NCBI GenBank assembly: GCA_021777765.1
Contig: JAJYDF010000001.1
Location: 13,151-77,150 of the forward strand
From: Pseudomonadota bacterium
GTDB lineage: Bacteria; Pseudomonadota; Gammaproteobacteria; DASZBR01
DNA: 64,000 nt
Direction: 5' to 3'
This document shows, piece after piece, positions 30,001 to 33,000 of this stretch. Position 1 is the first letter of the stretch. Every line of letters starts with the position of its first letter. A program made the position numbers.

Positions 30001-33000
30001 AAATTATGAGACCTAAAGCAGCTCCCAAGAAAAGTAAATTATGATATAATGAAAAATTATTCGAACATAGATAATAGGCGTATCAATGAGTATTGAATCA
30101 ATTTTATTAAAACATTTAGCAAGATCAGCAATTTTTATTAATAGCCACCCGGTGAAATTTAGAAACTGGAATAATTCAAAAGAACGTGAAGAAGGATATA
30201 GCAATAGTAGTTTTTTTGAGACCATAAAAAAGGGCGCTATTGTGGGTGTGTTATCACCGAATATAAAGGTATCCGCAAAAACACCTTATTTTCAATATAA
30301 GATAAAGGAAAAAATGTCTGCAGCTGCAGCGGTTAAAGATTTAATTAAAATGAGTGCAACCATTTTTAACCGCAGGCACTGGAATTACATTAACTGTTTC
30401 AATCCTCACTCATTAATTAAAATGAGTGCAACAATACAGATTGCAGTCATATTTGCGCTTCATGTGGAGTTTCAATCCTCACTCATTAATTAAAATGAGT
30501 GCAACATTTTGTGCAGTCTTTACAGCTACGTTTGAAACTGTTTCAATCCTCACTCATTAATTAAAATGAGTGCAACCTTTACAGCCATCAGCTACAATGT
30601 TGGAACTGTCTTGTTTCAATCCTCACTCATTAATTAAAATGAGTGCAACTTCTGTAAGAGAACTGCTCCGCCATAAAGACATTAGTTTCAATCCTCACTC
30701 ATTAATTAAAATGAGTGCAACCTTCATCTACGGCCATCACTGAAATAACTCTTGGTACGTTTCAATCCTCACTCATTAATTAAAATGAGTGCAACGACAC
30801 TTCCCCTTATACACTACTACTACACTGTTACTAGTTTCAATCCTCACTCATTAATTAAAATGAGTGCAACCAGATTAAGATCATTTTTGCAAGAACAATT
30901 AATGGAGTTTCAATCCTCACTCATTAATTAAAATGAGTGCAACAATCAATTGTATCCTATTAAAACGGGTACGGATATGTTTCAATCCTCACTCATTAAT
31001 TAAAATGAGTGCAACATGCTAATGTAACAAGTACATTTTCAACGTCAGTTGTTTCAATCCTCACTCATTAATTAAAATGAGTGCAACCAAACAACGTAAT
31101 TTGCTGGTAAATCACCACCAGTGTTTCAATCCTCACTCATTAATTAAAATGAGTGCAACAACTGATGTACCATACCAATTTGCTTTTTCAGGAACGTTTC
31201 AATCCTCACTCATTAATTAAAATGAGTGCAACTTAAACGATGAAAAATTGTGTTATACATTATTAATGTTTCAATCCTCACTCATTAATTAAAATGAGTG
31301 CAACCCTTTACATCACTTGCTAAAGTTTTACTATGAGAGTTTCAATCCTCACTCATTAATTAAAATGAGTGCAACCGCAAAAAACGCTTTAAAAGCTAAA
31401 TTGGTTAACGGTTTCAATCCTCACTCATTAATTAAAATGAGTGCAACCCCTGCGGTTATTTTGACTTATAATTAATAGGAAAAAATATATCAATTTCGCG
31501 AACCTTAACATTTTTAAGCTGGGTATATCATGTATTATTAAGCTCATTATTATTTTTGCCTATTTTTATGGGGTTTTGTTATGGCGCGAACCTGCCGTGA
31601 TTTTGTCTTTGCTTTATGTTCGCGCTTCATTATATTACAAGTGGTTTATTAAAATCAGTTGATCTAAAGTTGCCGAATTCTTTTACGCTGCAATCAACCG
31701 CGTCTGATACTCGATAAATTCGTAAATTATCTTCCGCTTCGTTAATCTCATTTAATAATTTATTTTCTAATTCTTCATATTGCATTAAATTTACTTGGCA
31801 TTCAAATACTGATTTCTGAACGCGTTGTCCAACACTTTCGCAAATTTTTGCGACATGACGTAATCTTGTGCGCCCAGCTTTTGTTTCAGTTGAAACATCA
31901 TATGTTACTATTATTAACATAATTATCTCGTTAAAAAAGGCAAATAACCTTCCATATCGCCGCGTAATGTACGCGCAATTAATCTAGCTTGTAACATAGG
32001 TACAAGGCCAAGACACATTTTGCTTTCAGTTAAAGGATGTGTAATCTCTTCTTGTTTTCGTTCTTGATAGGCAATGACAACTTTTTTACTACTACCATCA
32101 GCTAAATAAACCGCACCACCTTCATATTCTTTAAAATCTTTAATTCCAATTTGTTTACGATTAATTAATGTCAATGCAAGTCTATCAGCTAATGGGGCGC
32201 GAAATTCTTCTAATAAATCTAGTGACATCGCTGAACGTCCAGGGCGCACAGAATGTAAATAACCAAGTTGTGAATCTAGGCCAACACTTTCAATGGCTGT
32301 TCGACAATCGTTCATCACTAACGCATATAAAAACGATAAGAGGGCATTAAATCGATCGCGTGGTGGTCTTCGGGTTCTGCCATCCATAGTAAAATGCTCT
32401 CGTAAATCAACGGTGACTAATAAAGGTAAACAAGAAAAATACATTTTAGCGGCATCACCTTCGATACCACGTAAAACATCTAAATCAGAAGCTTTAGGTA
32501 AACTCACTATGGAGCTTGCTAAATAATTGACACCCTTCGTGATTAAATCTTTATCCCGCTGATTGTCTGATTCGCGAGCACCACGCATTAAAACTTGACG
32601 TGAATTTTTTAATTTTCCTGCAATAATTGCTCTTGCTATATTAAGTGTAAATATTGGATCGGAAGCATTTTGAAATTGTGCAAGTCGCAATAAAATATTT
32701 CCGTTAACAGGGCCTTCTAATCGCGCTTTAAAATGTCCATGTCTATCAAGTAAAACAAGGCTAATACCATCGCTTGCACATCGTTGCATTAATGCAGGTG
32801 ATATCATTACATCTCCAAAGCAAACAATAGAACTTATATGATGTAATGGCACTTGCATTTTCTTTTCGTGATTGATCATCACTGCTGCTGTATCATTTTC
32901 TAAATGAAGATAAGCATTGGGCGTTGTAATATATAATGTATTTAATATTTGTTGCATTTGTCCTCCGTTACATACAAGACTTTACGCAATTTTGTTAATT

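What the first reader, a model, noticed from the sequence alone, without database searches (positions are those of the whole stretch)
30324..31447. Type I-C CRISPR array with an unusually AT-rich repeat; adjacent spacers share a 9-mer
The 37-bp repeat (GTTGCACTCATTTTAATTAATGAGTGAGGATTGAAAC) keeps the I-C ATTGAAAC 3' handle and an 8-bp stem (CACTCATT/AATGAGTG). It is much more AT-rich than the GC-rich I-C repeats usually described.

The array holds 15 spacers plus a degenerate distal repeat. Spacer 30506-30539 and its neighbour 30577-30612 share CTTTACAGC and AGCTAC. This may reflect primed acquisition from one target or two variants of the same mobile element.
Basis: seen in the sequence. Interest (0 to 1): 0.5.

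Follow-up and report, generated by a model that had tools for sequence, protein, structure and literature searches.

The report
AT-rich type I-C CRISPR array
This is an ordinary, intact-looking type I-C CRISPR array in a low-GC uncultured gammaproteobacterium; its repeat is an AT-rich version of a known 37-base repeat design, and the 9-base match between two spacers is what chance predicts.

Summary
The array is real and at the stated coordinates. It has 15 identical 37-nt repeats, one degenerate distal repeat and 15 spacers of 34-38 nt, read on the minus strand. It lies directly downstream of a complete cas3-cas5c-cas8c-cas7-cas4-cas1-cas2 operon.

The repeat is a member of a documented 37-nt I-C repeat design, also seen in Thermus, Geobacter and Nitrosomonadales. 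The design is a 4-nt 5' flank, a stem at positions 5-13/18-26 and an 11-nt tail ending GGATTGAAAC.

Among 65 distinct sampled repeats of this design, this one has the lowest GC (0.32 against 0.38-0.76) and the weakest hairpin (-9.7 kcal/mol). It keeps every invariant position; only the variable stem and loop positions have become A/T. Published Leptospira repeats (GC 0.30-0.38) have the same geometry, so this is not unprecedented.

The shared 9-mer is not significant. Shuffled spacer sets give a 9-mer or longer in 36-60% of trials for any pair and 7% for adjacent pairs.

No spacer matched phage, plasmid or viral-contig collections or the window itself. PAM, targets and priming therefore remain untested.

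Verdict: new member of a known kind, low interest.

The parts
30324..31447 (-). CRISPR array: 15 identical 37-nt repeats, 1 degenerate terminal repeat and 15 spacers (34-38 nt). It is read from 31447 down to 30324.
30324..30360 (-). Degenerate terminal (oldest) repeat. It matches the consensus at 23/37 positions and only the 5' half in RNA sense is conserved.
   Evidence: The same sequence ends the array in L001 and L002.
31411..31447 (-). Leader-proximal first repeat, the expected site of new spacer integration.
   Evidence: Polarity follows from the position of the conserved leader, the degenerate repeat at the other end, and the GGATTGAAAC 3' tail on the - strand.
30506..30539 (-). Spacer 13 from the leader. 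It contains CTTTACAGC on the + strand.
30577..30612 (-). Spacer 12 from the leader. It begins with CTTTACAGC on the + strand.
   Evidence: similarity at chance level.
31448..31629 (-). Leader, 182 nt and AT-rich, lying between the cas2 stop codon and repeat 1.
31497..31504 (-). Leader box C, GGTTCGCG, at -57..-50 from repeat 1.
   Evidence: Present at about -53 in nearly all of 56 unique leaders of 37-nt I-C arrays.
31584..31592 (-). Leader box B, GGTTCGCGC, at -145..-137.
31618..31625 (-). Leader box A, GCGCGAAC, at -178..-171. It is the inverted partner of box B and lies 5 nt after the cas2 stop.
31630..31920 (-). cas2 (96 aa).
   Evidence: TIGR01573, 62 bits against a cut-off of 24.5.
31923..32957 (-). 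cas1c (344 aa).
   Evidence: TIGR03640 type I-C Cas1c, 481 bits against a cut-off of 385.
32942..33583 (-). cas4 (213 aa).
   Evidence: TIGR00372, 127 bits against a cut-off of 65.
33586..34461 (-). cas7c/csd2 (291 aa).
   Evidence: TIGR02589, 393 bits against a cut-off of 182; PADLOC Cas7c.
34458..36263 (-). cas8c/csd1, the I-C signature gene. The ORF is 601 aa from a TTG start; public records call it as 593 aa.
   Evidence: TIGR01863, 523 bits against a cut-off of 219; PADLOC Cas8c; gene call in L001.
36236..36898 (-). cas5c (220 aa), the pre-crRNA endonuclease of I-C systems.
   Evidence: TIGR01876, 199 bits against a cut-off of 85. E-values of 1e-58 to 1e-62 to solved I-C Cas5c chains 3KG4, 3VZI, 8DEX, 7KHA and 8G9T.
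37061..39283 (-). cas3 with HD nuclease and helicase domains. The ORF is 740 aa; public records call it as 734 aa.
   Evidence: TIGR01587 and TIGR01596 both above cut-off; PADLOC Cas3c, 754 bits.

Best explanation

Inferred mechanism, from established I-C biology:
- The array is transcribed from the leader at 31448-31629 on the minus strand.
- Each repeat folds into an 8-bp hairpin.
[quoted passage not shown] This gives crRNAs with an 11-nt 5' handle (AGGAUUGAAAC), a 34-38-nt spacer and a 26-nt 3' hairpin.
- Cas5c, Cas8c and Cas7 form Cascade, and Cas3 degrades matching DNA.
- Cas1, Cas2 and Cas4 add new spacers at the leader-proximal repeat.

The repeat belongs to the 37-nt I-C repeat design, with a 4-nt flank, a stem at positions 5-13/18-26 and an 11-nt tail. 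Its AT-richness comes from replacing every variable stem pair with A-U or U-A and filling the loop with A/T. All invariant and near-invariant positions are kept: G1, C5, C7, C9, G22, G24, G26, A27 and GGATTGAAAC. The likely cause is the host lineage's AT mutational bias acting on positions that need only pair. The 9-mer shared by two neighbouring spacers is coincidence.
For: Shown directly:
- The operon is complete and full-length with I-C-specific models, and the array lies directly downstream of cas2.
- The hairpin is the minimum-free-energy structure, followed by exactly 11 nt.
- On 65 distinct 37-nt repeats, the stem 5-13/18-26 is paired in 98.1% of cells. Eight of 9 pairs show compensatory changes. 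No shuffle out of 500 and no slid register comes close.
- The window repeat keeps all invariant and near-invariant columns of that alignment.
- 60 of 62 arrays next to Cas1c relatives (61-69% identity) have a 37-nt repeat of the same design.
- The three leader boxes that sit at fixed distances in about 50 related leaders are all present.
- The 15 repeats are identical.
- Cas operon GC (0.33-0.35) equals the flank GC.
- Related low-GC loci carry the same repeat core (L003: Cas1 87%, same chromosomal neighbours) or an intermediate one (L004: Cas1 74%, about 0.41-0.43 GC).
- The predicted hairpin energy (-9.7) is close to that of the B. halodurans I-C repeat (-10.8), which is processed experimentally (PMC8524198).

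From the literature:
[quoted passage not shown] It reads the cut site and downstream bases rather than the loop (PMC8524198).
- The 37-nt I-C repeat of T. thermophilus is functional with a TTC PAM (PMC10989782).

For the 9-mer being chance.
Against: - Expression, processing, interference and adaptation are all untested.
- No protospacer was found for any spacer, so neither PAM nor activity can be inferred.
- The AT-drift explanation rests on one lineage. Across 58 other repeats with at least 3 kb of flank, repeat GC does not follow flank GC (Spearman -0.17). Hosts at 45-47% GC keep repeats of 65-68% GC.
- The window leader lacks the IHF-like ATCATnnnnGTTG element that most relatives have at -22..-10.
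- No spacer differences between strains were seen. L001 is identical, and L002 and L003 show only one repeat-spacer unit, which may be an assembly collapse.
Confidence: 0.85

Rival explanations
1. The locus is a decaying or inactive system. On this view the AT-rich, weaker hairpin reflects relaxed selection, and the array is a frozen relic that no longer acquires spacers or guides interference.
For: - None of the 15 spacers has a match.
- No spacer turnover was seen between independent records.
- The Logan contigs L002 and L003 carry only one full repeat.
- The leader-proximal IHF-like element of relatives is absent.
- The hairpin is the weakest of the 65 sampled.
Against: - All 15 repeats are identical, and only the terminal repeat is degenerate.
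- All seven cas ORFs are full-length against their profiles.
- All invariant repeat positions and all three leader boxes are retained.
- Pairing is preserved by compensatory A-U pairs rather than lost.
- Spacers without matches are normal for uncultured hosts.
- The Logan contigs may be assembly collapses.
Confidence: 0.1
2. Spacers 30506-30539 and 30577-30612 were acquired from one target. This could be by primed acquisition, or from two diverged copies of a repetitive gene, which would explain the shared CTTTACAGC and AGCTAC.
For: - The two spacers are adjacent and share the words on the same strand.
- A lenient gapped alignment of this pair alone is reached by only 14/2000 shuffles.
- The similarity can be extended with indels that sum to 9 nt (my reading of the sequences).
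Against: - After correcting for the number of comparisons the signal disappears. A 9-mer or longer occurs in 6.9% of shuffles among adjacent pairs and in 36-60% among all pairs.
- Five other pairs have a higher gapped score. The observed score is reached by an adjacent pair in 59/400 shuffled sets and by any pair in 365/400.
- The bases flanking the 9-mer differ, so the spacers are not overlapping samples of one sequence.
- No target was found for either spacer.
Confidence: 0.07
3. The array is serviced by a different system, for example a Cas6-dependent I-B or type III system. Those systems also use repeats ending in ATTGAAAC, so the I-C operon could be merely adjacent.
For: I-B repeats of Thermus end in the same GAGGATTGAAAC (PMC10989782, PMC6452258). 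An 8-nt ATTGAAAC handle is typical of Cas6-made crRNAs (general knowledge).
Against: - The array begins 182 nt after cas2 of the I-C operon.
- The same repeat design follows I-C cas1-cas2 in 60 of 62 related loci.
- The tail after the stem is exactly the 11 nt of a Cas5c product (PMC8524198).
- Every gene of the operon is assigned, none is a cas6, and no second array exists in the window.
Confidence: 0.02

Closest known systems
37-nt type I-C repeats of Thermus thermophilus HB27 (GTTGCACCGGCCCGAAAGGGCCGGTGAGGATTGAAAC) and Geobacter metallireducens CRISPR3 (GTAGCGCCCGCCTACATAGGCGGGCGAGGATTGAAAC)
   Same: Length is 37 nt. The 5' GTTGCAC and the 3' GTGAGGATTGAAAC are identical to Thermus. The stem occupies the same columns and is followed by an 11-nt tail. 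The arrays are associated with I-C cas genes (PMC10989782, PMC6452258, PMC2700814).
   Different: GC is 0.32 against 0.62. The stem is 8 bp with a 6-nt loop rather than 9 bp with a 4-nt loop. Predicted stability is -9.7 against about -20 kcal/mol. Function and the TTC PAM were shown for Thermus and are untested here.
I-C arrays of Nitrosomonadales, Gallionella and Sulfuricella genomes (closest Cas1c relatives, 61-69% identity)
   Same: The cas1-cas2-leader-array layout is the same. So are the 37-nt repeat design and the three leader boxes at about -177, -142 and -53.
   Different: Their repeats are 0.54-0.78 GC even in hosts of 45-50% GC. Most have an IHF-like ATCATnnnnGTTG next to the first repeat, which the window lacks.
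Canonical 32-nt I-C repeats (B. halodurans, S. pyogenes, S. mutans, X. oryzae, D. vulgaris)
   Same: [quoted passage not shown] Predicted hairpin energy is similar to B. halodurans (-10.8).
   Different: The canonical form has a 2-nt 5' flank, a 7-bp stem and a 5-nt loop; here these are 4 nt, 8 bp and 6 nt. The first tail base is A rather than U. GC is 0.32 against about 0.50.
37-nt AT-rich repeats of Leptospira noguchii and L. kirschneri (for example GTTTCTTTCTCTTGTTTGAGAGGAAGTGGATTGAAAC)
   Same: Length is 37 nt with 4+9+4+9+11 geometry. GC is 0.30-0.38 and predicted energy is -8.9 to -9.1 kcal/mol. The host is low-GC. L. noguchii is scored in that paper as having only the Dvulg/I-C system (PMC4758666 Table 5).
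   Different: The stem sequence is unrelated (CUUUCUCUU/AGAGGAAG). I did not test whether those arrays sit next to I-C cas genes.

Membership tests
Type I-C (Dvulg) CRISPR-Cas | Signature large subunit Cas8c/Csd1. | tested here: met
   TIGR01863, 523 bits against a cut-off of 219, covering 1-587 of 588 profile positions; PADLOC Cas8c.
Type I-C (Dvulg) CRISPR-Cas | Catalytic Cas5c in place of Cas6, with no cas6 in the operon. | tested here: met
   TIGR01876 Cas5c, 199 bits against a cut-off of 85. E-values of 1e-58 to 1e-62 to solved I-C Cas5c chains. All seven operon genes are assigned and none is a Cas6. Catalytic residues were not checked.
Type I-C (Dvulg) CRISPR-Cas | Gene order cas3-cas5-cas8c-cas7-cas4-cas1-cas2 followed by the array. 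| tested here: met
   Coordinates 39283 down to 31630 on the minus strand, with the array starting 182 nt after cas2.
Type I-C (Dvulg) CRISPR-Cas | Repeat RNA forms a hairpin followed by an 11-nt 3' tail ending GGAUUGAAA(C/U). | tested here: met
   The minimum-free-energy fold is an 8-bp stem followed by AGGAUUGAAAC, 11 nt. The feature is defined in PMC8524198.
Type I-C (Dvulg) CRISPR-Cas | [quoted passage not shown] | not testable with these tools
   Needs RNA sequencing or an in vitro cleavage assay.
Type I-C (Dvulg) CRISPR-Cas | 5'-TTC PAM next to protospacers. | not testable with these tools
   No protospacer was found. There was no hit at E<=1 in 50,697 phage records or 72,556 plasmids, none in IMG/VR for 7 spacers, and none in the window.
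37-nt I-C repeat design (Thermus, Geobacter, Nitrosomonadales type) | Length 37 nt, a 4-nt 5' flank, a stem at columns 5-13/18-26, and invariant C5, G26 and GGATTGAAAC. | tested here: met
   Alignment of 65 distinct repeats. The stem is supported by covariation, with 98.1% of cells paired and 8 of 9 pairs compensatory. The window has 8 of the 9 pairs; pair 13/18 is U-U, as in 10 other members.
37-nt I-C repeat design (Thermus, Geobacter, Nitrosomonadales type) | Leader with GCGCGAAC, GGTTCGCG and GGTTCGCG boxes at about -177, -142 and -53. | tested here: met
   Window boxes lie at -178..-171, -145..-137 and -57..-50. The IHF-like element at -22..-10 seen in most relatives is not met.
Primed spacer acquisition signature | Neighbouring spacers derived from one target, shown by shared or overlapping sequence beyond chance, or by clustered protospacers on one strand. 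| tested here: not met
   The shared 9-mer is expected in 36-60% of shuffled sets for any pair and 6.9% for adjacent pairs. Gapped similarity is not an outlier. Protospacer mapping was impossible because there were no hits.

The most novel reading that the evidence does not exclude
This lineage may mark the low-stability, low-GC extreme of the 37-nt I-C repeat family. It retains only the three alternating C-G pairs at the stem base (5-26, 7-24, 9-22) and the 11-nt tail. If the system is active, those few positions plus mere pairing would be the whole recognition code for this branch of Cas5c and Cas1-Cas2. The locus would then be a natural minimal-determinant experiment. It would also be a case where host AT mutational pressure has overridden the usual tendency of I-C repeats to stay GC-rich regardless of host GC.
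Probability: 0.3. Interest if true: 0.3.

Novelty: new member of a known kind. Interest (0 to 1): 0.15.

Why it matters
It matters little beyond cataloguing. The locus adds a low-GC member to a known I-C repeat family. It shows which repeat positions survive strong AT pressure, which could guide the design of minimal I-C repeats.

The 15 spacers are a record of unknown mobile elements of an uncultured gammaproteobacterium. They could link phage contigs to this host once its source metagenomes are searched.

The conserved, fixed-distance leader boxes are probably more useful for understanding I-C adaptation than the repeat composition is.

Tried and rejected
Spacer targets:
- The whole array was searched with blastn (word 11, E<=1) against GenBank phages and PLSDB plasmids, with no match.
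- Eight exact scans of IMG/VR all returned 0. They were spacer 12 in full, 20-24-nt PAM-proximal parts of spacers 13, 1, 5, 4, 10 and 14, and the repeat.
- blastn-short of all spacers against the masked window and related loci found only chance matches of 14-17 nt.

Repeat in other collections:
- The exact repeat was not found in JGI metagenomes.
- Rfam at gathering thresholds gave no family anywhere in the window.

Organism name:
- The exact-sequence look-up gave no names.
- The genome-contig scan did not return the window's own species; the best hit was 69%.
- The best named DnaK neighbour is only 77% identical ('Candidiatus Paracoxiella cheracis'), and that name is not in the taxonomy copy.

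Ideas dropped:
- Repeat GC generally tracking host GC was rejected as a general rule.
- Overlapping protospacers for the two spacers were rejected, because the sequences beside the 9-mer differ.
- A look-up of Cas8c starting from the TTG codon failed because public gene calls use a later start.
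Full report
**Observation**

The region 30324-31447 holds 15 exact copies of a 37-nt repeat. On the + strand it reads GTTTCAATCCTCACTCATTAATTAAAATGAGTGCAAC, with starts from 30396 to 31411. One degenerate copy lies at 30324-30360 (23/37 identical). The repeats are separated by 15 spacers of 34-38 nt. No other copy of the repeat exists in the window on either strand, even allowing 12 substitutions.

**Context and type**

Seven ORFs lie on the minus strand immediately to the right of the array:
- cas2, 31630-31920
- cas1, 31923-32957
- cas4, 32942-33583
- cas7, 33586-34461
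- cas8c, 34458-36263
- cas5c, 36236-36898
- cas3, 37061-39283

Each matches its NCBIfam model over essentially the full length and above the curated cut-off. Four of the models are I-C-specific: Cas1c, Cas7/Csd2, Cas8c/Csd1 and Cas5c. PADLOC gives the same names. Cas5c matches solved I-C Cas5c chains at E-values of 1e-58 to 1e-62. The operon is flanked by hrcA-grpE-dnaK on one side and by an MFS transporter on the other. Operon GC (0.33-0.35) equals that of the surroundings. This is a complete chromosomal type I-C locus.

Polarity is on the minus strand, for three reasons. The degenerate repeat is at the end far from cas2. The conserved leader lies between cas2 and position 31447. The GGATTGAAAC tail reads on the minus strand.

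**Host**

The identical locus is present in an ENA metagenome contig of 164 kb (L001) and in Logan assemblies. No source names the organism. DnaK has unnamed relatives at 85-96% identity. The best named ones, at 77%, are gammaproteobacterial MAGs and a Coxiella-like candidate taxon. The host is therefore an uncultured, low-GC gammaproteobacterium. I cannot place it more precisely.

**The repeat**

In RNA sense the repeat is GUUG-CACUCAUU-UUAAUU-AAUGAGUG-AGGAUUGAAAC. This is a 4-nt flank, an 8-bp stem, a 6-nt loop and an 11-nt tail. The hairpin is the minimum-free-energy and centroid structure (-9.7 kcal/mol, z = -3.25).

[quoted passage not shown] The predicted crRNA is therefore an 11-nt handle, the spacer and a 26-nt hairpin. 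This is inference; nothing here measures RNA.

**Is the repeat unusual?**

I collected arrays next to Cas1c relatives in one genome per species. Of 62 loci with an array, 60 have a 37-nt repeat of the form GTAGCGCCCG....CGGGCGAGGATTGAAAC, with GC of 0.54-0.78.

A degenerate scan of JGI metagenomes for CACTC-N12-GAGTG-N-GGATTGAAAC returned more than 120 loci and 51 distinct 37-nt repeats, with GC of 0.38-0.65. The nearest is GTTGCACTCAGTTTTATAACTGAGTGAGGATTGAAAC. It is identical to the window repeat in its outer 10 and 17 nt.

Among the 65 distinct repeats that occur at least three times in a locus, the window's has the lowest GC (0.32) and the least stable hairpin. The others range from -12.4 to -23.4 kcal/mol.

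On the alignment of these 65 repeats, the stem at columns 5-13/18-26 is paired in 98.1% of cells. Eight of 9 pairs show compensatory changes. No shuffle out of 500 reaches the observed covariation, and slid registers fall to 32-49% paired.

The window repeat keeps every invariant column (C5, G26, G28 to C37) and every near-invariant column (G1, C7, C9, G22, G24, A27). All of its A/T enrichment lies in the variable pairs (6-25, 8-23, 10-21, 11-20, 12-19, 13-18) and in the loop. The architecture, however, is standard for a known subfamily:
- T. thermophilus HB27 I-C, 37 nt, functional with a TTC PAM (PMC10989782, PMC6452258)
- G. metallireducens CRISPR3 (PMC2700814)

Published Leptospira repeats of 37 nt have the same 4+9+4+9+11 geometry. 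Their GC is 0.30-0.38 and their predicted energies are -8.9 to -9.1 kcal/mol. In that paper L. noguchii is scored as having only the Dvulg/I-C system (PMC4758666). I did not verify that those arrays sit next to I-C cas genes. The experimentally processed B. halodurans I-C repeat folds at -10.8 kcal/mol, so -9.7 is within the working range.

**Why the repeat is AT-rich**

The two closest loci are also from low-GC DNA:
- L003 (Cas1 87%, contig GC 0.34) has the same chromosomal neighbours and the same repeat core.
- L004 (Cas1 74%, GC 0.36) has the intermediate repeat GTTTCACTCGCAATTAATTGCGAGTGTGGA..., which is cut by the contig end.

They suggest vertical residence of the system in an AT-rich lineage, with drift of unconstrained positions and pairing preserved by compensation.

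I mark this as inference from one lineage. Across 58 other repeats with at least 3 kb of flank, repeat GC does not follow flank GC (Spearman -0.17, not significant). Nitrosomonas-type hosts at 45-47% GC keep repeats of 65-68% GC.

**Leader**

Anchoring 56 unique leaders at the first repeat shows three boxes at fixed distances: GCGCGAAC at about -177, GGTTCGCG at about -142 and GGTTCGCG at about -53. Most relatives also have an ATCATnnnnGTTG element at -22..-10 that resembles an IHF site.

The window has all three boxes, at + strand coordinates 31618-31625, 31584-31592 and 31497-31504. L003 and L004 have them too. None of the three loci has the proximal IHF-like element.

Subtype-specific motifs and IHF sites up to 100-200 bp upstream are already reported for I-C leaders (bioRxiv 10.1101/2023.05.26.542337). 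I therefore treat the boxes as evidence of an intact leader, not as something new.

A possible sigma-70 promoter lies just downstream of box C: TTGATA at 31487-31492, a 17-nt spacer, then TATAAG at 31464-31469. This is my reading only; the consensus scan did not list it.

**Spacers**

Spacer GC is 0.17-0.43, close to that of the host. The searches below found nothing:
- The whole array against 50,697 phage records and 72,556 plasmids at E<=1, meaning no exact stretch of roughly 22 nt
- Exact scans of IMG/VR with spacer 12 in full and with 20-24-nt PAM-proximal parts of spacers 13, 1, 5, 4, 10 and 14
- The rest of the window, where only 14-17-nt chance matches appeared

The targets, the PAM and any self-targeting therefore remain unknown.

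**The shared 9-mer**

CTTTACAGC is the longest word shared by any spacer pair. In 1000 composition-preserving shuffles of the 15 spacers, some pair shares 9 nt or more in 36% of sets (same strand) or 60% (both strands). Some adjacent pair does so in 6.9%.

With a lenient gapped score, this pair (11.5) ranks behind five other pairs. That score is reached by an adjacent pair in 59/400 shuffled sets and by any pair in 365/400. The bases on both sides of the 9-mer differ between the two spacers, so they are not overlapping samples of one protospacer. I conclude coincidence. A residual 5-10% remains for related targets, and only protospacer mapping can resolve it.

**Strain comparison**

L001 carries the identical array. 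The Logan contigs L002 (same species) and L003 (Cas1 87%) run from the leader through one repeat and one spacer into a degenerate repeat. The L003 spacer is truncated. A 37-nt repeat is longer than the assembler's k-mer as I recall it (k = 31; from memory, not checked). These may therefore be collapsed arrays rather than real one-unit arrays, and I leave this open. No evidence of spacer turnover was obtained.

**Verdict**

This is a canonical, intact-looking type I-C array of the known 37-nt repeat design. It is notable only as the most AT-rich and least stable member among 65 sampled, and similarly AT-rich repeats of the same geometry (I-C link not checked by me) are listed for Leptospira. 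The primed-acquisition idea is not supported. It is a new member of a known kind, of low interest.

Noticed in passing
window 31497-31504, 31584-31592, 31618-31625 (minus strand); leaders of L003-L087: Three GC-rich leader boxes sit at fixed distances from the first repeat in about 50 of 56 unique leaders of 37-nt I-C arrays: GCGCGAAC at about -177, GGTTCGCG at about -142 and GGTTCGCG at about -53. Host GC ranges from 34% to 65%. The first two boxes form an inverted repeat directly after the cas2 stop. They are probably the subtype-specific adaptation motifs already reported for I-C leaders.
   Followed up: partly
window 30286-30315 versus 31456-31486: A roughly 31-nt segment just beyond the degenerate terminal repeat resembles the promoter-proximal part of the leader (ATTTTTTCCT.TTA..TTATA....AAAATAA). 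Only 8 of 1000 shuffles reach the alignment score. It may be a fossil of a second leader or of an old leader-repeat duplication.
   Followed up: partly
window 30086-30493 (+): This 135-aa ORF is called as a gene in public records. It runs through the degenerate repeat, the oldest spacer, a full repeat and part of the next spacer, and it matches no NCBIfam family. Its C-terminal third is array sequence, so the gene call is at least partly an artefact.
   Followed up: partly
L005 9472-9989; also L006 and L007: In the I-C operon of a GC-rich gammaproteobacterial MAG (GCA_006218035.1 lineage, Cas1 67%), a ParE-like toxin and an Unstab_antitox antitoxin are inserted between cas4 and cas1.
   Followed up: no
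L002 9213-9320; L003 3780-3860: Logan contigs of the same species and of an 87% relative show only one full repeat, one spacer (17 nt in L003) and a degenerate repeat. I could not decide whether these are real minimal arrays or assembly collapse of a 37-nt repeat.
   Followed up: partly
L005 11508-13700 versus L006 11508-13072: Two records of the same GC-rich lineage differ at the leader end of the array. L005 has an extra leader-proximal unit. L006 has an aberrant 89-nt interval with a partly duplicated repeat. This indicates spacer turnover in that relative.
   Followed up: no
L008-L207 (arrays with at least 3 kb of flank): Across 58 distinct 37-nt repeats, repeat GC does not correlate with flanking GC (Spearman -0.17). 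Hosts at 45-47% GC keep repeats of 65-68% GC. Repeats usually resist host composition, and the window lineage is the exception in this sample.
   Followed up: yes
window -22..-10 of the leader (31457-31469): Most relatives carry ATCATnnnnGTTG, which resembles an IHF site, next to the first repeat. The window, L003 and L004 do not. The AT-rich lineage may use a different or no architectural protein at the leader-repeat junction.
   Followed up: no
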